Source: a virus
Taxonomy: Duplodnaviria > Heunggongvirae > Uroviricota > Caudoviricetes
Reading direction: 5' to 3' (one strand)
Length of the DNA: 10,273 bases
IMG/VR virus record: IMGVR_UViG_2617270966_000009
Shown: in pieces, positions 2,234 to 8,613 of the stretch
How the letters are laid out: each line of letters begins with the position of its first letter
Numbering within the stretch: the stretch's first letter is position 1
Made by a program: the position numbers and the translations under genes
The notes under the pieces: model-generated
Seen by the model: only the letters and a program-made list of their open reading frames with translations
Database searches by the model: none
Told to the model about the DNA's origin: nothing

Positions 2234-2261
2234 AGGTACTGCAAAATTACAGTACCTTTTC
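2234..2261 (+). terminator. Putative rho-independent terminator after the AT-rich gene
   Basis: Perfect 8-bp inverted repeat AGGTACTG (2234-2241) / CAGTACCT (2250-2257) with an 8-nt loop, followed by TTTT. The stem is AT-rich, so moderate strength. Confidence 0.5.
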
Positions 2262-2329
2262 ATTGTATATCTATACAGCTAGATTTCTCGTAACGAAGCA
2301 ACAACTACCGCTAAGAGGTTACGGGAATC

Positions 2330-2979: not shown

Positions 2980-3813
2980 ATGAACATCGAAAAAAGCAGA
3001 TTAATTTCTGAGGCCGCCCCTCATCTGAACGCCTATCAGGGCACAATTAACGGTAATGAATTTGCCGCAATTGTCCCGGTTATTCCTGGTCATATCGGTG
3101 GGCGTGAAACCAATATTGTTAGCGCAAAAGCGTTACACAAAGCGTTGGGCGTGGGAAAAGACTTCTCTACATGGATCACTGATCGCATCTCTGAATATGA
3201 CTTCACCATTGGGCACGATTACTCAGTCCATAAAACAATTTCCCCAAATTTGGGGAAAAGCCCGAATGGCGCGGCTTACAGCAAGATTAAGCAGTCTGGC
3301 AGACCCGGCAAAGACTATCTGTTAAGTGTCGGAATGGCGAAAGAACTGGCAATGATCGAACGCAATGATCAGGGTCGCGCTATCCGCCGTTATTTCATCC
3401 AGTGCGAGGAAGAATTACAGCGTAGCGTGCCTGAAATCGCCGCCCGCTATCGTCGCCAGCTAAAAGCCCGTATCAGTGCCGCAAACAACTTTAAGCCAAT
3501 GTGCGATGCGCTGAATATGGCCCGTGCCGAGATGGGTAAAGCGACGCAGCAGCGCCACTACAGCAACGAGAGCAACATGATCGCCCGTATCGTGCTGGGT
3601 GGCATGACGGCGAAGCAGTGGGCGCAGGCAAATGGCATTACTGGCGAACCACGGGACAGCATGAACGCAGCACAGCTTGAACACCTCGCCTATCTCGAAA
3701 GCACCAATATCACGTTAATTGATATGGGCATGGAATATGAGCAGCGCAAAGGAGAACTCCCCCGCCTGTCGCAACGCTGGCTCGCTAAACGTCTGGAGGT
3801 AAACCATGCGTAA
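2980..3813 (+). CDS. Phage antirepressor / regulatory protein-like (Bro-N / KilA-N / Rha / AntA-type N-terminal domain)
   Basis: 277-aa ORF with RBS GGAGA 7 nt upstream. N-terminal region (NEFAAIVPVIPGHIGG...NIVSAKALHKALGVGKDFSTWITDRI...DYLLSVGMAKELAMIERNDQGRAIRRYFIQCEEEL) has the layout of phage antirepressor-type DNA-binding domains. The exact family cannot be resolved by eye. Confidence 0.7.
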   Translation: MNIEKSRLISEAAPHLNAYQGTINGNEFAAIVPVIPGHIGGRETNIVSAKALHKALGVGKDFSTWITDRISEYDFTIGHDYSVHKTISPNLGKSPNGAAYSKIKQSGRPGKDYLLSVGMAKELAMIERNDQGRAIRRYFIQCEEELQRSVPEIAARYRRQLKARISAANNFKPMCDALNMARAEMGKATQQRHYSNESNMIARIVLGGMTAKQWAQANGITGEPRDSMNAAQLEHLAYLESTNITLIDMGMEYEQRKGELPRLSQRWLAKRLEVNHA

Positions 3814-3988
3814 CCATAATCCGATGCCGGGAAGCCGTTACAAGGACAGTCACGGGGCTGTAGTGACCGTACAGCGCGTCGAGCATAACCGAGTGACCTT
3901 TTACCGCGAGGGCTATCAGTCGCCATGTGTTCAGCCTTTGGAGAGATTCGTTAATGAGTTCGTGGAGGTGCGCCGTGATACTGAATGA
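3806..3988 (+). CDS. Small hypothetical protein (60 aa)
   Basis: ATG at 3806 overlaps the stop of the upstream gene (ATGcgTAA) and is preceded by GGAGGT, suggesting translational coupling. Resembles small conserved prophage proteins, but I cannot name the family with confidence. Confidence 0.5.
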   Translation: MRNHNPMPGSRYKDSHGAVVTVQRVEHNRVTFYREGYQSPCVQPLERFVNEFVEVRRDTE

Positions 3989-4160
3989 ACCTGCCGCCCA
4001 GAAAGAAGCCTTTAATCTGGCTAGCCTGTTAACAAATGTTAACCCTTACAACCTTATAAAACCAAAGGTCGCGAACGGCTGCCTGTTATCAATTGTTATG
4101 GTTAATGACTTAGCAAAACTTAGCCTGAACCTCACAAAACCTGACATCCACGCACGGGGA
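3989..4160 (+). promoter_or_regulatory. Putative promoter/operator region for the downstream replication operon
   Basis: GTTAACAAATGTTAAC at 4028-4043 is two palindromic GTTAAC hexamers spaced exactly 10 bp centre to centre. It is followed by CCTTACAACCTTA and a TATAAA box (4055-4060). No convincing sigma70 -35 at canonical spacing, which would fit an activator-dependent promoter. The call is weak because a long open + frame runs through this region. Confidence 0.3.
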
Positions 4161-4694
4161 ATGACGACAAATGATGACATTTTAAACCAAGAAATAATCA
4201 CCTCTAAAAAGCTGATTGTGGGGAATAAATTCCCCCTGCTGGCTGGTGGTATGAACTGGATTGCTACCGTTGTGAACCGTTCCACATCGACTTTCGCGAC
4301 AAATACGCGTGCGCTGGAAGATTTATTAGGGGTCGTTACGCGAGAAGGTGAGTATTCGGAGTCCATAAAAAAGGGCTTGCCGACTATCGCCAACCCGGTT
4401 TATGGTTATAGCGCACCAGCAAAATCTGGTGCCGGGATTGGCGTCCTGATAATGTTACAGGCGACACATGACGCGCCGAGCGTCTTTTTTTGTGTCCTCG
4501 CATCTGCACACCTCTTTCCCAGCGATATGGCTATAGCCCATATTGCTCAAAAAGTAATGGTGGGCTGGATGGGGGCGGAGCGATCCGCGCCGGTTTCCTG
4601 TAACGCCGGTTACGCCAACCCTGTTCAGCTCACCACCAGTGAAATTGGCGTTTCCGGTGGTGGGAATAAATCCCAGTTACAGGAGGCTGCCATA

Positions 4695-4886
4695 ATGGCT
4701 ACTACCCCTACCCAAAAACCGCAATTTATCTGGATTATCGCAGCAGTTCGCCGCGATATGCCGACAATTACCGCCAAAATTCACCATATCGCCGCAGAGA
4801 CTGAGCAGGAAGCCCGCCGCATTCTGGCGCGGGATCACGTTTGCTTTTTTGCCGGACGTATTCGCACAGGGGGCGCACATGCTTAA
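4695..4886 (+). CDS. Small satellite protein, possibly Icd-like (host cell division inhibitor-like); 5' boundary uncertain
   Basis: Strong AGGAGG 7 nt upstream of ATG 4695 (MATTPTQKPQFIWIIAAVRRDMP...). The same frame is open back to 3927 with in-frame ATGs at 4161, 4527 and 4557, so the true product may be longer or there may be two in-frame products. The upstream segment MVGWMGAERSAPVSCNAGYANPV resembles what I recall of Ash-family proteins; this is unverified. Confidence 0.5.
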   Translation: MATTPTQKPQFIWIIAAVRRDMPTITAKIHHIAAETEQEARRILARDHVCFFAGRIRTGGAHA

Positions 4887-5058
4887 TTACTTCCGTGTTG
4901 CAGGATGCGCCACCGCCCGGAGCGGCGAATTAGTCGAGTTCGTTTATATCGTTGACGCCCGCAGCGCGATCAGCGCCAAAGCTGAGGCGCTAAATCAGGC
5001 CAGAAATGAACGCCTTTCCCACATCCAGATTACCCGCATTCGTGAGGTGGCAGCATGA
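4879..5058 (+). CDS. Small hypothetical protein (about 59 aa)
   Basis: ATG at 4879 preceded by AGGGGG and overlapping the stop of the upstream ORF (ATGCTTAA). The six-frame track start at 4849 lacks an RBS. Part of a chain of coupled small genes upstream of the primase. Confidence 0.5.
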   Translation: MLNYFRVAGCATARSGELVEFVYIVDARSAISAKAEALNQARNERLSHIQITRIREVAA

Positions 5059-5318
5059 ACATAACTACCATCTACCGCCACCCGGCAGAGCTGGAAGCCG
5101 AAGCGATGCTATCTCGCAAAGAATCATACCCGGATGATTTTACGCTGGCAGACCGAACAGCAGAACGCATGACCCGCGCCCGCAATGGGCTGGCTCACGT
5201 TATGACCGATTTATTACCACTCCTCGAAGTTGAGCAAGCAGCCATCGCGTATTGCTGGCTGAGTAAAGTCCTGACGATTGTCGATATAGCCAGAATTGAT
5301 GCGGAGGGCAGCGCATGA
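5055..5318 (+). CDS. Small hypothetical protein (87 aa)
   Basis: ATGA start/stop overlap with the upstream gene at 5055-5058. Acidic protein with no recognisable motif. Confidence 0.55.
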   Translation: MNITTIYRHPAELEAEAMLSRKESYPDDFTLADRTAERMTRARNGLAHVMTDLLPLLEVEQAAIAYCWLSKVLTIVDIARIDAEGSA

Positions 5319-5372: not shown

Positions 5373-5714
5373 ATGATTACTAAAAATTTCCGACTGAATG
5401 CGCTGGCGAATAAGTATGCGTCGGCACTGTATAACCACATTACCTCCACCAGCGGCGGGGACTATTTCATGGTTGATGCGGACGGCCTCGCCGTCCGTGT
5501 GGAAATCGTCAATGGAGTAAAAGGCGTTCGCAGTCTGATCGATAGCTACACACTGGCAGCCATGAAAGTGTCCTACCCGCAGTGGGAAACCGTGGGGGTC
5601 GAGCTTCTTGAGCGTTGCGTCACTAATGACGGATTGACTGACGTCGGGCGTGAGATATGGCAAAGCATGGTTAAAGACATGGGCGCGACCGTGGCAGGAG
5701 GCAACCATGCGTAA
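5373..5714 (+). CDS. Hypothetical protein (113 aa), immediately upstream of and coupled to the primase
   Basis: ATG at 5373 with GAGGGGG RBS (5362-5368). Stop TAA at 5712-5714 overlaps the primase ATG at 5707 (ATGcgTAA). Confidence 0.6.
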   Translation: MITKNFRLNALANKYASALYNHITSTSGGDYFMVDADGLAVRVEIVNGVKGVRSLIDSYTLAAMKVSYPQWETVGVELLERCVTNDGLTDVGREIWQSMVKDMGATVAGGNHA

Positions 5715-8148
5715 TATCGACCTTATCCGCGAAGTGACCAGTGCCGCCGCCGGGCGCTGGCCTTATGTGCTGGCTGGATTGTCTATCGACGTGCCTGATT
5801 CATCGCGCCGCCATTCTCCATGCCCTGCATGTGGTGGAAAAGACCGTTTCAGATTCGACGACAACGGGCGCGGTAGCTTTATCTGCAATCAGTGTGGCGC
5901 TGGTGACGGTTTAGACCTGATTAAGAAGGTGAACAACTGCGACACTACGGAGGCGGCACAGCTTGCCGCTGATGTGCTGGGTATTGATTACCGGGCAGCG
6001 GAAACCGCCCCGGTGGCAGCGAGCCATAGAAGAGAGCAACTGGAAGCTGACCGCCAGCAGCGTGAGCAGGAGCGCCAGAAACAGGCAGCAGAGGATGCAG
6101 AGCAGCGAAGGGCTACGTTTGCCCGTCTGTATGCCGGAATGCGCCAGAGTGCCACACAGGGAGAATCTGATTACCTGCAATCAAAAGGGCTGACCGGGTT
6201 TAACTATCCGGTTATGCCGGATGGTTCGTTATTGCTGGAGCTGGTGGACGAATCCGGCGCAGTGGCAGCAGCGCAAACCATTACACCGCAGGGAGAGAAG
6301 CGACTCCTGACAGGTTCAGCAAAGCGCGGGGCATATCACGCCGTAAACGCACCAGAACAGCCGCAGAGCGTATTAATTGCCGAGGGGCTGGCTACGGCCC
6401 TGTCCGTTCACCTGATGCGCCCGGACGCGCTTACAGTGGCGGCAATTGACGCCGGGAACCTGATCCACGTTGCCAGAGTAATGCGCCGGGAACACCCGCA
6501 GTCGCAAATTATCATTGCCGCAGATAACGACCACCAGCAGGACGAACAGGCGAACACGGGCAAAGATGCCGCAGAGAAAGCCGCCTTATCCGTGGCTGGC
6601 TGGGTGGCGCTGCCGCCGACAGACTACAAAGCCGACTGGGACGACTACCGCCAGCAAAACGGGCTGGAAGTCGCTACGGCTGCGTTTAACGATTCGATGT
6701 ACCAGATTCAGGGGGAAGCCGTGAAACCACAACTACAGGCCATTGTGGGCGGTAAATCCCGCCGTAAAGCCGAAGTCGGAGATATTGCACAAATGGCAGC
6801 CAGCCAGAAAGCGCGGTTGCTTTCATCTCGCTGGGATATGTTGGCGGTCAACCCTGATAGTGGCGCTGTTTACTGCTACGAATCTGGCGTATGGGTGAAG
6901 CTACCAGACAGCGAATTAGAAAGGGTTATGGTGGCAATTTTCGACGAGCACGAAGCCCACTACACCGAAAAAGGGATTAAATCGGTTGTCGCAACCATGA
7001 AGCTGCAAATACCGGTAATTGGTGAGCGGAGCGGGGATCTGATTGGTTTTGATAACGGCGTTTATGACCTCGCTACGCAGACGTTTTCCGCCCATTCGCC
7101 GGGTAACTGGCTGATGAACCACAATGGGATCACCTACACCCCGCCAGCGCTGGGGGAAAATATTACCACCAGCGCCCCCAATTTTACCCGTTGGCTGAAT
7201 CATGCAACGGCTGGCGACCATCATAAGGCCGAGCGTATCAAAGCAGCCTTGTTTATGGTGCTGGCGAAGCGTCACGACTGGCAGCTATTCATTGAGATAA
7301 CTGGCGAGGGCGGCAGTGGGAAATCCGTATTCAGCAGCATAGCAACCACGCTGGCAGGTGAACACAACACCGCCAGCGGTAGCATGATGACGCTGGACAC
7401 CGCACGGGGACGGGCGCAGTTCGTAGGAAAAAGCCTGATTATTATGCCTGACCAGACCCGCTATGTTGGAGAGGGTGCGGGGATTAAAGCCATTACGGGC
7501 GGCGATCCGGTAGAGATTGATGGGAAATATGAAAAGCAGTTCACAACCGTGATAAATGCCGTTGTTATGGCAACCAATAACGAGCCGATGACATTCACGG
7601 AGCGAAACGGGGGCATTGCCCGCCGCCGCGTGATATTCCCGTTTAATAACCCGGTATCAGACGCAGACAAAGACCCGGATTTAACCGCAAAAATCAGGCG
7701 AGAAATCCCGGTGATTATCCGCCACCTGCTAACCACCTTTGCCGACCAGAACAAAGCAAAGGCACTATTACTAGAGCAGCGCGATTCGCAGGAGGCGCTA
7801 GAGGTTAAACGCGGCACGGATCCGGTTGTCGATATGTGTGCGGCGCTTTTTTTCATGAACGAACCCAAAGGCATGATGATGGGCGGAGGTACATGGGCAG
7901 GCCAGCCAGAGCCGAGGACGTATCTTTATCATCTTTATCTGGCGTTTATGGAGTATCACGGTTTGGGTAAACCGCTTTCCGTCAATAAGTTTTCACGCGC
8001 CATAAAATCAGCAGCAAAAGAGTACCGAGCCAGCTACCTGACGAGAAGCATTAACGGCAGAGCGCAAACCAACGTTGGCTATAACGAGAAGGCTGAGGAG
8101 TTCATGCCACGCGCTTACGGTGTGGAGAGCGGGCAGAGTGATGATTGA
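5707..8148 (+). CDS. Replication primase-helicase: primase Zn-ribbon + Toprim + phage/plasmid primase P4-family / D5-like SF3 NTPase
   Basis: Preferred start ATG 5707 with CAGGAGG 5 nt upstream; the track's longer ORF begins at a GTG at 5650 without an RBS. Zn-ribbon CPACGG...CNQCG at 5821-5895. Acidic Toprim-like IIIAADNDHQQDE with DND at 6523-6531. Walker A GEGGSGKS at 7303-7326. Size (813 aa) and domain order match P4 alpha-like and PICI pri-rep proteins. Confidence 0.9.
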   Translation: MRNIDLIREVTSAAAGRWPYVLAGLSIDVPDSSRRHSPCPACGGKDRFRFDDNGRGSFICNQCGAGDGLDLIKKVNNCDTTEAAQLAADVLGIDYRAAETAPVAASHRREQLEADRQQREQERQKQAAEDAEQRRATFARLYAGMRQSATQGESDYLQSKGLTGFNYPVMPDGSLLLELVDESGAVAAAQTITPQGEKRLLTGSAKRGAYHAVNAPEQPQSVLIAEGLATALSVHLMRPDALTVAAIDAGNLIHVARVMRREHPQSQIIIAADNDHQQDEQANTGKDAAEKAALSVAGWVALPPTDYKADWDDYRQQNGLEVATAAFNDSMYQIQGEAVKPQLQAIVGGKSRRKAEVGDIAQMAASQKARLLSSRWDMLAVNPDSGAVYCYESGVWVKLPDSELERVMVAIFDEHEAHYTEKGIKSVVATMKLQIPVIGERSGDLIGFDNGVYDLATQTFSAHSPGNWLMNHNGITYTPPALGENITTSAPNFTRWLNHATAGDHHKAERIKAALFMVLAKRHDWQLFIEITGEGGSGKSVFSSIATTLAGEHNTASGSMMTLDTARGRAQFVGKSLIIMPDQTRYVGEGAGIKAITGGDPVEIDGKYEKQFTTVINAVVMATNNEPMTFTERNGGIARRRVIFPFNNPVSDADKDPDLTAKIRREIPVIIRHLLTTFADQNKAKALLLEQRDSQEALEVKRGTDPVVDMCAALFFMNEPKGMMMGGGTWAGQPEPRTYLYHLYLAFMEYHGLGKPLSVNKFSRAIKSAAKEYRASYLTRSINGRAQTNVGYNEKAEEFMPRAYGVESGQSDD

Positions 8149-8164
8149 AACTTTTACGGCGGCA

Positions 8165-8415
8165 CTTATCCCTACTGCCCTACTAAAAACGAGACGAGGC
8201 CAGACGTAGCAAGGCTTTAAACTAGGTAGGGATATATATTTTTATCCCTACTTATCCCTACATATCCCTACCAAATAAAACAGGCAGTAAAATGCCGTTG
8301 AAGTGATTTAGTAGGGATAAGTAGGGTTATGTAGGGCAACAAAATTGAATGCCTACCAGTCTGAAAGCCTTGCCATTCGTGGCATGAGCCAGTTAGTAGG
8401 GATTGGTAGGGATAT
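8165..8415. repeat. Iteron cluster, putative origin of replication of the element
   Basis: At least 11 copies of a GTAGGG(A/T)T-type motif, mostly in phased arrays with exact 10-bp spacing. Minus-orientation copies (CCCTAC) at 8170-8175, 8178-8183 and three tandem TATCCCTAC at 8244-8272. Plus-orientation copies at 8226-8232, three at 8311-8336 and two at 8396-8411. Located directly downstream of the primase-helicase gene, the canonical ori position in PICIs. Confidence 0.7.
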
Positions 8416-8485
8416 TACACCCCCAAAAAGATTCTATGGGGGGGTGAGCTTAAAACGAAACTTGTCAAAACTTGACACACAGAAC

Positions 8486-8520
8486 GATGCCAGCAGCTAC
8501 TGAGCGGCGGCATTTTTTTG
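8486..8520 (+). terminator. Possible weak terminator downstream of the primase operon
   Basis: Short imperfect stem (ATGCC ... GGCAT) followed by a run of seven T at 8514-8520. The stem is weak, so this is tentative. Confidence 0.25.
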
Positions 8521-8582
8521 TGCTATTTGTTTCATATTTTGCAATTACGGTGATAAATATTGCTATTTGTGAAACTATAATA
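8518..8582 (+). promoter_or_regulatory. Putative promoter with flanking direct repeats upstream of the small-protein / metallopeptidase operon
   Basis: Perfect -10 hexamer TATAAT at 8576-8581. Exact 10-mer direct repeat TGCTATTTGT at 8521-8530 and 8561-8570 (40 bp apart), a candidate operator. The -35 is not obvious. A consensus TTGACA also occurs at 8471-8476. Confidence 0.35.
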
Positions 8583-8613
8583 ACTGTTGTTTTATACAGT
8601 TCTAAGGGGCGTT

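What the first reader, a model, noticed from the sequence alone, without database searches (positions are those of the whole stretch)
3927..4886. 960-nt open frame with ambiguous gene structure: regulatory region plus Ash/Icd-like small protein(s)
One + frame is open from 3927 to 4886, but the only strong ribosome-binding site (AGGAGG) sits before the ATG at 4695, and the 5' part overlaps the upstream small gene. The 4028-4063 segment contains two palindromic GTTAAC hexamers 10 bp apart and a TATAAA box, which looks like an operator or activator site. This is where an AlpA-dependent promoter for the replication operon would be expected. A 319-aa product therefore seems unlikely; the region may hold a promoter, possibly a structured leader, and one or two small proteins expressed from internal starts (4161, 4527, 4557 or 4695).
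Basis: partly seen in the sequence, partly recalled or inferred. Interest (0 to 1): 0.45.

Follow-up and report, generated by a model that had tools for sequence, protein, structure and literature searches.

The report
P4-type RNA immunity switch, eta/kil genes
The long open frame is an E. coli island's copy of the satellite phage P4 immunity region, where a small antisense RNA and its targets lie inside a long reading frame that seems to be kept open only so that ribosomes can cross it, so it is a good example of a known system, not a new one.

Summary
The 960-nt open frame is real. It is neither an ordinary protein gene nor merely non-coding.

Positions 4377-4694 hold a P4/P1-type RNA immunity module:
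- a promoter (TTGCCG-18-TATGGT);
- an IsrK/seqA-like leader with a terminator (4413-4491);
- a C4/CI antisense RNA (4553-4640);
- a second target copy covering the Shine-Dalgarno sequence of a 63-aa Icd/Kil-like gene (4695-4886).

Rfam scores exceed the curated thresholds. In about 100 related loci the RNA stems covary and the loops covary with their targets.

Only 4695-4886 shows third-position wobble. Even so, the frame across the RNA genes stays open in 88 of 100 loci. It survives non-homologous upstream segments and compensated frameshifts. It starts at a GGAGG-GTG (3975) that overlaps the stop of the upstream gene.

This matches P4 eta/kil. Kil is nested in Eta, and Eta is translated only from upstream transcripts, which prevents immunity-dependent termination.

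The proposed operator at 4028-4063 is not conserved. Pfam "Phage_ASH" is the conceptual translation of these RNA genes. It does not match P4 epsilon.

Verdict: a new member of a known system, of modest interest.

The parts
3806..3988 (+). Upstream DUF4222 gene. Its stop (TGA 3986-3988) lies 11 nt after the start of the long ORF, which suggests translational coupling.
   Evidence: Pfam PF13973, 79.4 bits. Start/stop overlap seen.
3964..3977 (+). Shine-Dalgarno GGAGG (3964-3968), a 6-nt spacer, then GTG (3975-3977). This is the likely start of the eta-like long ORF.
   Evidence: PGAP uses this start in L001. L002-type islands have GGAGG-7 nt-ATG at the same place.
3975..4886 (+). Eta-like long ORF of 303 codons. 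The frame is open from 3897 and the first GTG is at 3927. It reads through the internal promoter, both RNA genes and their targets, and ends in frame with icd/kil.
   Evidence: No codon periodicity upstream of 4695.
4028..4060 (.). Present, but not conserved and with no promoter match.
4064..4347 (+). Mosaic, island-specific spacer segment of the long ORF. It is replaced by unrelated sequences of other lengths in sister islands, and the frame is open in all of them.
   Evidence: Its translation (as part of the 3975-4346 query, 124 aa) has only 24 relatives among 5.8 billion proteins, all at the same kind of locus. No PHROG hit.
4377..4406 (+). Internal promoter equivalent to P4 P_LE: -35 TTGCCG (4377-4382), 18-nt spacer, -10 TATGGT (4401-4406). 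The inferred transcription start is near 4413.
   Evidence: Same geometry as P4 (TTGCCT-18-TATAGT) and conserved in L002/L003. Position 1 of the isrK model aligns to 4413. Too weak for the simple consensus scan.
4413..4491 (+). IsrK/seqA-like leader RNA. It carries target copy a1 (TTGGCGT, 4438-4444), target copy b1 (GTTACAGG, 4454-4461) and an intrinsic terminator (stem 4470-4484 plus a T run).
   Evidence: Rfam isrK 75 bits against a threshold of 50. c4-a1b1 scores 43.8 bits at 4400-4452, below its 46.7 threshold. Terminator. Motif positions.
4553..4640 (+). C4/CI-type antisense immunity RNA. Its b' loop is TTTCCTGTAAC (4594-4604) and its single-stranded a' segment is ACGCCAA (4612-4618).
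   Evidence: Rfam C4 76.9 bits against a threshold of 45. Consensus fold of 93 distinct homologues gives 28 pairs, 17 with compensatory changes. Loop-target covariation.
4645..4686 (+). Downstream target (seqC, or a2/b2): TTGGCGT (4645-4651) and GTTACAGGAGG (4676-4686). The second contains the icd Shine-Dalgarno sequence AGGAGG (4681-4686).
   Evidence: The predicted duplex with C4 4590-4622 is -39.8 kcal/mol (no shuffle control was run for this sub-region).
4695..4886 (+). Icd/Kil-like gene of 63 aa, nested in frame in the long ORF and sharing its stop codon.
   Evidence: NCBIfam NF033153, 73.5 bits against a cutoff of 25. Third-position wobble. In frame with the long ORF in 74 of 94 loci.
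4879..5058 (+). Next small ORF (59 aa). Its ATG overlaps the icd/eta stop by 8 nt. It is the first of the downstream genes that lead to the primase ORF at 5650-8148, which this switch presumably controls.
   Evidence: Annotated as a CDS in L001. No family hits.

Best explanation
Positions 3975-4886 are this island's counterpart of the phage P4 immunity region, with kil nested inside eta.

In the repressed state (inferred by homology):
1. A constitutive promoter inside the long ORF (4377-4406) starts transcripts near 4413.
2. Some transcripts stop at the intrinsic terminator (4470-4491) and give an IsrK/seqA-like RNA.
3. Read-through transcripts carry the C4/CI RNA (4553-4640), which is processed to a stable small RNA.
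4. The b' loop and the a' segment of that RNA pair with matching sequences upstream (4438-4461) and downstream (4645-4686).
5. The downstream site includes the Shine-Dalgarno sequence of icd/kil, so icd is not translated.
6. The untranslated transcript is then terminated before the replication genes, and the island stays quiescent.

In the induced state (inferred):
1. Transcripts arrive from upstream, from the alpA-antA-DUF4222 operon.
2. Ribosomes finishing DUF4222 start at GTG 3975 and translate the whole long frame through the RNA elements.
3. That translation stops the RNAs from folding and pairing and stops Rho from loading, so these transcripts ignore immunity and reach the primase.

On this reading the frame is kept for the act of translation, not for the protein it would encode.

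Shown here: the RNA family matches, the covariation, the kept-open frame, the start-stop coupling, and coding constraint confined to icd. Inferred from P4 work: RNA processing, Rho termination and anti-termination by translation.
For: RNA module:
- Rfam C4 scores 76.9 bits and isrK 75 bits, both above their curated thresholds.
- P4 has the same order of elements, with CI RNA scoring as C4.
- 93 distinct C4 homologues share a fold of 28 pairs, 17 with compensatory changes.
- There are 42 distinct b' loops and 58 loop-plus-a' combinations. Each is complementary to its own upstream and downstream targets: 9.7 and 8.5 nt for the loop, against 6.4 nt across loci.

Coding constraint:
- Wobble appears only in 4695-4886.

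The frame is kept open:
- 88 of 100 complete, non-identical loci have an open frame of at least 150 codons spanning C4. The median is 201 codons, against 48 in the other frames.
- Among all 108 non-identical loci, 95 have such a frame, and in 93 of them it is the same frame relative to C4.
- icd is in frame with it in 74 of 94 loci.
- L125 and L126 differ from the window by indels of 1, 1, 2 and 38 nt plus a 3-nt insertion. The frame is shifted locally and then restored.
- 15 unrelated upstream segments are all open.
- Where icd is out of frame, the long frame still has no stop across icd in 18 of 20 loci, against 29 of 74 controls (Fisher p = 8e-5).

Start of the long ORF:
- It overlaps the stop of the upstream gene in most loci, including P4.

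P4 comparison:
- P4 kil is 65 codons and eta about 198, in the same frame.
- The mechanism is summarised in PMC10111431, citing Forti et al. 1999.
Against: - There are no expression data for this locus.
- The promoter is a weak consensus match and the simple scan missed it.
- Rho dependence, RNA processing and translation of the long frame are all taken from P4.
- The primary P4 paper (PMC94026) could not be read. Its content comes from a secondary summary and from memory.
- About 12% of loci lack the long frame, and 21% have icd out of frame.
- Part of the open-frame statistic is selection-biased, and the loci are phylogenetically related.
- Here the long ORF is coupled to a DUF4222 gene, not directly to alpA as in P4. 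AntA-like and other genes lie in between.
Confidence: 0.8

Rival explanations
1. The long open frame is a passive by-product. The RNA genes and promoter are conserved at the nucleotide level and happen to lack stops in one frame. Nothing upstream of 4695 is translated.
For: No codon periodicity upstream of 4695. DNA is about 80% identical between the window and L002, while the translated frames are 47% identical. The frame is broken in about 12% of loci and flagged as a pseudogene in L003 and L127.
Against: The frame stays open across non-homologous, length-variable upstream segments and across compensated frameshifts. A Shine-Dalgarno sequence and start codon overlap the stop of the upstream gene in most loci. 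Out-of-frame variants keep icd's +1 frame free of stops. Eta translation in P4 is reported from experiments.
Confidence: 0.08
2. The frame encodes a genuine sequence-specific regulator of 303-319 aa, an "Ash family" or Bro-network protein with an Icd-like C-terminus.
For: Pfam Phage_ASH scores 86 bits. PHROG "transcriptional repressor/regulator" families match. PGAP annotates it as a CDS. The Ash region is fused to Rha/Ant genes in many phages.
Against: The Pfam match (aa 160-264, nt 4404-4718) coincides with the promoter -10 box, isrK, C4 and seqC. There is no wobble there. Local frameshifts change the peptide and are tolerated. The N-terminal 124 aa have no family. In L002-type islands the same frame runs out of frame over icd. 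The database labels trace back to the old P4 "cI gene product" ORF.
Confidence: 0.05
3. The module works as in Gifsy-1 IsrK. The short terminated leader RNA acts in trans as an activator. It opens an inactive read-through transcript so that a short ORF starting after the terminator (ATG 4527 or 4557, the counterpart of orf45) is translated and couples to the downstream gene. This could replace C4-mediated repression or operate alongside it.
For: The isrK model scores 75 bits. In-frame ATGs exist at 4527 and 4557. The IsrK paper reports that orf45 is conserved as nucleotides but not as protein, and is needed for coupling (PMC4825925).
Against: The downstream genes are icd plus P4-type replication genes, not anrP/antQ. 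The C4 loop is complementary to the icd Shine-Dalgarno sequence, which predicts repression. The long frame extends far upstream of the promoter, with its own start, and the orf45 model does not explain that.
Confidence: 0.07

Closest known systems
Satellite phage P4 immunity region (P_LE, seqA, CI RNA, seqC, kil nested in eta)
   Same: Same order of elements and the same Rfam hits. Same promoter geometry. Kil/Icd homologue by NF033153. Long ORF in frame with kil, starting upstream of the promoter and overlapping the stop of the upstream gene. A P4-family primase lies downstream.
   Different: The eta-like ORF is longer (303 codons against about 198) because of an island-specific spacer (4064-4347). 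It is coupled to a DUF4222 gene, with AntA-like and other genes lying between alpA and it. C4-to-icd spacing is 54 nt, similar to P4. No epsilon (PF25738) homologue was found among the ten ORFs scanned. The a'/b' specificity sequences differ.
Phage P1/P7 immI region (C4 antisense RNA, a1/b1 and a2/b2 targets, icd-ant)
   Same: The antisense RNA is cut from the same transcript as its targets. The a2/b2 site covers the icd ribosome-binding site. An Icd-like division inhibitor is the first gene. Specificity is set by a few loop bases. These points rest on Rfam families RF01695 and RF03163 and on established knowledge of P1.
   Different: There is no ant downstream; replication genes follow instead. 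The nested long ORF is a P4 feature. c4-a1b1 scores just below its Rfam threshold here.
Salmonella Gifsy-1 IsrK / orf45 / anrP locus
   Same: The leader RNA matches the isrK model from end to end, terminator included. A reading frame overlies the C4-like RNA and is conserved as nucleotides, not as protein (PMC4825925).
   Different: That system is described as activation in trans by the short RNA, and it controls an antirepressor and an antiterminator. This locus sits upstream of icd and replication genes.
Pfam PF10554 Phage_ASH, the "ash family protein" of genome annotation
   Same: Strong match, 86 bits.
   Different: The family models the conceptual translation of the isrK/C4 RNA region. 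It matches the old P4 "cI" ORF and SfV orf37 exactly over their RNA genes. It does not match the P4 epsilon derepression protein, which is PF25738.

Membership tests
Rfam RF01695 C4 antisense RNA (includes P4 CI RNA) | Covariance-model score at or above the gathering threshold of 45 bits, matched over the full length | tested here: met
   76.9 bits, model positions 1-87, window 4553-4640. P4 CI RNA scores 74.9 bits.
Rfam RF01695 C4 antisense RNA (includes P4 CI RNA) | Long closing stem enclosing two hairpins, supported by covariation | tested here: met
   Consensus fold of 93 distinct homologues: 28 pairs, 17 with compensatory changes, nearly all cells paired.
Rfam RF01695 C4 antisense RNA (includes P4 CI RNA) | Two single-stranded segments (a', b') complementary to target copies both upstream and downstream, the downstream copy covering the ribosome-binding site of the first gene | tested here: met
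   Motif positions. Covariation across 58 specificity combinations.
Rfam RF01695 C4 antisense RNA (includes P4 CI RNA) | Produced by processing of a longer transcript, and confers immunity | not testable with these tools
   Needs Northern blots, RACE and genetics.
Rfam RF01394 isrK | Score at or above 50 bits, with a 3' intrinsic terminator | tested here: met
   75 bits at 4413-4490. Terminator 4470-4484 plus a T run.
Rfam RF03163 c4-a1b1 | Score at or above 46.7 bits | tested here: not met
   43.8 bits at 4400-4452. P4 itself also falls short, at 44.1 bits. The same element passes the isrK model.
P4 eta/kil nested genes | [quoted passage not shown] | tested here: met
   GGAGG-6 nt-GTG at 3975, 11 nt before the DUF4222 stop and about 400 nt upstream of the -35 box. 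The same overlap is seen in most loci and in P4.
P4 eta/kil nested genes | A Kil/Icd-like gene nested in the same frame and sharing the stop codon | tested here: met
   Window 4695-4886 is in frame. 74 of 94 loci are in frame. NF033153 matches both the window Icd and the P4 kil region.
P4 eta/kil nested genes | Translation of the long ORF suppresses immunity-dependent (Rho) termination | not testable with these tools
   Indirect support only: the frame is kept open with no constraint on the amino acids.
Pfam PF10554 Phage_ASH, taken as a protein domain | HMM score above the gathering threshold | tested here: met
   86 bits against 26, aa 160-264.
Pfam PF10554 Phage_ASH, taken as a protein domain | The matched region evolves as protein-coding sequence (wobble, indels in multiples of 3) | tested here: not met
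   Entropy is flat across codon positions over 4378-4694. Indels of 1, 1, 2 and 38 nt occur in L125 and L126.
P4 epsilon / derepression protein (PF25738) | Sequence match to the Derepression family | tested here: not met
   P4 epsilon hits PF25738 at 170 bits and not PF10554. None of the ten window ORFs scanned hits PF25738.
Icd-like cell division inhibitor (NCBIfam NF033153) | HMM score above the cutoff of 25 bits | tested here: met
   73.5 bits, aa 11-58 of the 63-aa product.
Icd-like cell division inhibitor (NCBIfam NF033153) | Inhibits cell division or FtsZ | not testable with these tools
   Reported for P1 Icd (PMC11897509, abstract listed). Not tested for this protein.

The most novel reading that the evidence does not exclude
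The long frame may belong to a widespread class of ORFs that are "translated for the sake of translation". It overlaps two structured RNA genes and a promoter. Across Enterobacterales it is kept open, through compensated frameshifts, unrelated spacers and even overlap with icd in another frame, while its peptide drifts freely. If so, the Pfam/PGAP/PHROG "Ash" or "transcriptional repressor" family is not a protein family in the usual sense. Surveys that used PF10554 as the P4 epsilon marker would then have been detecting the RNA immunity locus.
Probability: 0.6. Interest if true: 0.4.

Novelty: new member of a known kind. Interest (0 to 1): 0.3.

Why it matters
- **Annotation.** Genome annotation calls this region an "Icd-like protein" of 303 aa here, and an "ash family protein" or "transcriptional regulator" elsewhere. 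That hides an RNA-based immunity switch.
- **What is actually regulated.** Recognising the switch shows how the island's replication genes are controlled.
- **Immunity groups.** The a'/b' sequences can be read directly as immunity specificities, and 58 combinations appear in the sample.
- **A marker that needs care.** PF10554 should not be used as a protein marker for P4 epsilon.
- **Comparative support for the P4 model.** The open frame with no amino-acid constraint fits the experimental P4 finding that translating eta, not the Eta protein itself, counteracts termination.

Tried and rejected
- **Promoter or operator at 4028-4063.** No sigma-70 match, and the hexamers are not conserved in relatives with the same flanks. 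The segment aligns with the N-terminal region of other eta-like ORFs.
- **Separate small proteins from 4161, 4527 or 4557.** No codon periodicity anywhere upstream of 4695.
- **Minus-strand ORF 4046-4393 (115 aa).** No PHROG hit. The minus-strand promoter-like site at 4208-4179 is at chance level.
- **A protein domain in the N-terminal 124 aa.** No Pfam or PHROG hit. Only 24 relatives, all at the same kind of locus.
- **Anchoring the frame analysis on the terminator.** This failed for islands with a divergent terminator. I re-anchored on C4.
- **Full-length C4 against its targets with duplexfold.** Not informative (z = -1.2 and -1.8), because C4's own stems dominate the energy. The loop-level complementarity test was used instead.
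- **Reading Forti et al. 1999 (PMC94026).** The paper is not held.
- **Weak Rfam hits (HrrF, petD intron, aceE-II).** All far below their thresholds.
Full report
**Observation**

- The + frame is open from the first GTG at 3927 to 4886, 319 aa. Stop to stop it is 330 codons.
- Its 5' end overlaps a DUF4222 gene at 3806-3988.
- AGGAGG lies at 4681-4686, before the ATG at 4695. GTTAAC occurs at 4028 and 4038, and TATAAA at 4055-4060.
- The double hexamer is expected 0.01 times by chance.
- One statement in the finding is wrong. A second strong Shine-Dalgarno sequence, GGAGG at 3964-3968, sits 6 nt before an in-frame GTG at 3975. That GTG lies 11 nt before the DUF4222 stop.
- PGAP uses this start for a 303-aa "host cell division inhibitor Icd-like protein" in E. 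coli PT62, which is 99.9% identical over 3800-5100.

**Genomic context**

The window is a P4-like or PICI-like island. In order it carries an integrase, a DUF6387 gene, alpA (2330-2533), a 144-aa ORF, an AntA-like gene, the DUF4222 gene, the long frame, several small ORFs and a primase ORF at 5650-8148. The sister island L001 carries a P4-family primase at the corresponding place.

**What lies inside the frame**

Rfam finds three elements on the + strand:

| Family | Window | Bits | Threshold |
|---|---|---|---|
| isrK | 4413-4490 | 75.0 | 50 |
| C4 antisense RNA | 4553-4640 | 76.9 | 45 |
| c4-a1b1 | 4400-4452 | 43.8 | 46.7 |

- The isrK hit ends in an intrinsic terminator, with a stem at 4470-4484 followed by a T run.
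- Pfam Phage_ASH matches aa 160-264 of the frame, which is nt 4404-4718. That is exactly the stretch holding these RNA elements.
- The 63-aa product of 4695-4886 matches NCBIfam phage_ICD_like at 73.5 bits.

**Comparison with P4**

- P4 (NC_001609) has the same three Rfam hits in the same order on its minus strand. Its CI RNA scores as C4.
- The old P4 "cI gene product (AA 1-137)" CDS hits Phage_ASH over the CI RNA and phage_ICD_like at its C-terminus. The real P4 epsilon protein hits PF25738 "Derepression" and not PF10554.
- Reading the P4 sequence directly:
  - P_LE is TTGCCT-18 nt-TATAGT, just before seqA.
  - kil runs from 8365 to 8168, 65 codons.
  - The same frame is open back to ATGATGATG at 8767-8759. 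The TGA stop of ORF88 (the P4 alpA/vis homologue) lies within this run, at 8766-8764.
- The window has the same geometry. It reads TTGCCG (4377-4382), an 18-nt spacer, then TATGGT (4401-4406), with position 1 of the isrK model at 4413. L002 and L003 conserve it.
- PMC10111431 summarises Forti et al. 1999:
  - P_LE lies inside eta.
  - Its transcript is terminated through CI/seqA interactions and processed into CI RNA.
  - Kil is a truncated Eta.
  - Full-length Eta is translated only from the upstream late promoter, coupled to the alpA homologue.
  - Eta translation prevents termination.
- I could not read the primary paper.

**Comparative tests**

A pattern scan for the seqA terminator fetched 120 stretches from Enterobacterales genomes. 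Together with E. coli islands and P4, these gave 110 loci with a C4 hit.

1. **RNA structure.** 93 distinct C4 sequences share a fold of 28 pairs. 17 pairs show compensatory changes.
2. **Pairing with targets.**
   - There are 42 distinct b' loops and 58 loop-plus-a' combinations.
   - Each loop matches its own downstream and upstream targets over 9.7 and 8.5 nt, against 6.4 nt for targets of other loci. The a' segment behaves the same way.
   - In the window, TTTCCTGTAAC (4594-4604) faces GTTACAGGAGG (4676-4686, including the Shine-Dalgarno sequence) and GTTACAGG (4454-4461).
   - ACGCCAA (4612-4618) faces TTGGCGT at 4438 and 4645.
3. **Coding constraint.** Entropy by codon position is given below.

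| Segment | Position 1 | Position 2 | Position 3 |
|---|---|---|---|
| 4338-4377 (upstream of -35) | 1.10 | 1.06 | 1.19 |
| 4378-4490 (promoter, seqA/isrK) | 0.63 | 0.70 | 0.70 |
| 4491-4552 (spacer) | 0.90 | 1.07 | 0.82 |
| 4553-4640 (C4) | 0.75 | 0.66 | 0.64 |
| 4641-4694 (C4 end to icd ATG) | 0.79 | 0.69 | 0.94 |
| 4695-4886 (icd) | 0.42 | 0.43 | 0.92 |

4. **The frame is nevertheless kept open.**
   - 88 of 100 complete, non-identical loci have an open frame of at least 150 codons spanning C4. The median is 201 codons, against 48 for the other frames.
   - Among all 108 non-identical loci, 95 have such a frame, and 93 of them use the same frame relative to C4.
   - icd is in frame with it in 74 of 94 loci. 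The C4-to-ATG distances are 139, 142 or 145 nt.
   - Sister islands replace 4064-4347 with unrelated sequences. Their ORFs are 234 to 355 aa long and all open.
   - 15 unrelated upstream variants are open. The window's own 150 upstream codons stay open in only 0.03% of shuffles. This sample was chosen on openness, so the joint probability is inflated.
   - L125 and L126 differ from the window by indels of 1, 1, 2 and 38 nt plus a 3-nt insertion between seqA and icd. The peptide changes locally but the frame is restored.
   - Substitutions are spread evenly over codon positions: [3,4,5] and [7,3,3] in 3975-4347, and [15,16,16] in 4348-4694.
   - Where icd is out of frame (the L002 type), the long frame runs through icd in its +1 frame and beyond it. 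18 of 20 such loci have no stop in that frame within icd, against 29 of 74 controls (p = 8e-5).
5. **Start of the long ORF.** It overlaps the stop of the upstream gene in most loci. The offset is -1 in 24 loci, -4 in 12 and -14 in 6, the last group including the window's sequence (represented there by the identical locus L001).

**Interpretation**

The locus carries two overlapping constraints: conserved RNA genes, and an open frame that runs over them. The P4 model fits best.

- In the quiescent state, the internal promoter makes the leader and C4 RNAs. C4 covers the icd ribosome-binding site, the untranslated transcript is terminated, and the replication genes stay off.
- After induction, transcripts from the alpA operon are translated from GTG 3975 through the module. 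That translation overrides immunity.

The RNA matches, the covariation, the open frame and the start-stop coupling are shown here. RNA processing, Rho termination and anti-termination are inferred from P4.

- The 3960-4063 block is shared by several islands.
- L126 and L130 read GTTGTC...GTTGAC and TACAAA in place of the two GTTAAC hexamers and the TATAAA box.
- No sigma-70 promoter is found there.
- The segment aligns with the N-terminal region of other eta-like ORFs.
- An activator-dependent promoter cannot be excluded, but nothing supports one.

**Other checks**

- The N-terminal 124 aa have only 24 relatives among 5.8 billion proteins. All are at the same type of locus and many are fragments. 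They have no PHROG hit.
- The minus-strand ORF 4046-4393 also has no PHROG hit.

**Wider point**

- SfV orf37 (278 aa, annotated "transcriptional regulator") carries its Phage_ASH match at nt 1501-1782 of L131. Its isrK hit is at 1513-1589 and its C4 hit at 1614-1701.
- A tblastn search with the Ash-frame translation finds the same open frame in 116 phage records. It is often annotated as part of Rha or Ant regulators.
- Published work treats "Ash" as a protein domain of unknown function (PMC8951638).
- One survey used PF10554 as the P4 epsilon marker (PMC8628076).
- Only PMC10111431 notes CI and seqA homologues inside such genes.

**Verdict**

This is a well-preserved, uncharacterised member of the known P4/P1 RNA immunity system with the eta/kil nested-gene arrangement.

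Noticed in passing
window 4404-4718; L004 (P4) 8168-8584 and 7888-8175: Pfam PF10554 "Phage_ASH" matches the conceptual translation over the CI/C4 RNA region (the old P4 "cI" ORF). It does not match P4 epsilon, which is PF25738. A large survey of P4-like satellites (PMC8628076) used PF10554 as its epsilon marker, so that marker was probably detecting the RNA immunity locus.
   Followed up: partly
L002:2685-3752, and the same arrangement in L023, L003, L030, L040, L085, L095 and others: In about 20% of loci icd starts 1 nt earlier relative to C4. The long ORF then reads through icd in its +1 frame and ends 172-211 nt or more beyond the icd stop. In L002 it overlaps the start of the next annotated gene. 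18 of 20 such loci have no stop in that frame within icd, against 39% of in-frame loci.
   Followed up: partly
C4 b' loop and a' segment across L001-L130 (window 4594-4604 and 4612-4618): There are 42 different loop sequences. Together with the a' sequences they give 58 loop-plus-a' combinations, each matched by its own targets. This looks like a combinatorial set of immunity specificities among Enterobacterales satellites and prophages.
   Followed up: partly
window about 4063/4064 and 4347/4348: Sharp mosaic boundaries. Positions 3960-4063 and 4348 onward are shared with many islands, while 4064-4347 occurs in only 28 of 5,426 E. coli genomes. Elsewhere it is replaced by unrelated sequence of a different length.
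   Followed up: partly
L131 (phage SfV) 1153-1989: SfV orf37, annotated "transcriptional regulator" or "immunity region", contains isrK (1513-1589) and C4 (1614-1701) under its Phage_ASH match. It overlaps the stop of orf36 by 4 nt. The same architecture therefore occurs in a temperate phage.
   Followed up: yes
window 3975-4886: PHROG families 6928, 3960, 821 and 995, labelled "transcriptional repressor" or "regulator", match only the part of the frame that holds the RNA genes and icd. The labels probably descend from the superseded P4 cI protein annotation.
   Followed up: no
window 2236-2263: A stem-loop GGTACTGCAAAATTACAGTACC followed by TTTT lies just after the DUF6387-like gene and before alpA. 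It was picked up as a very weak HrrF hit. It looks like an intrinsic terminator separating the integrase module from the alpA operon, whose promoter would lie at about 2264-2329.
   Followed up: no
window beyond about 5318, compared with L001: The E. coli PT62 island (99.9% identical over the queried 3800-5100) has a different gene layout further downstream. It carries a 627-nt CDS at L001:5516-6142 and its primase starts about 630 nt later than in the window. The replication module therefore appears to be mosaic too.
   Followed up: no
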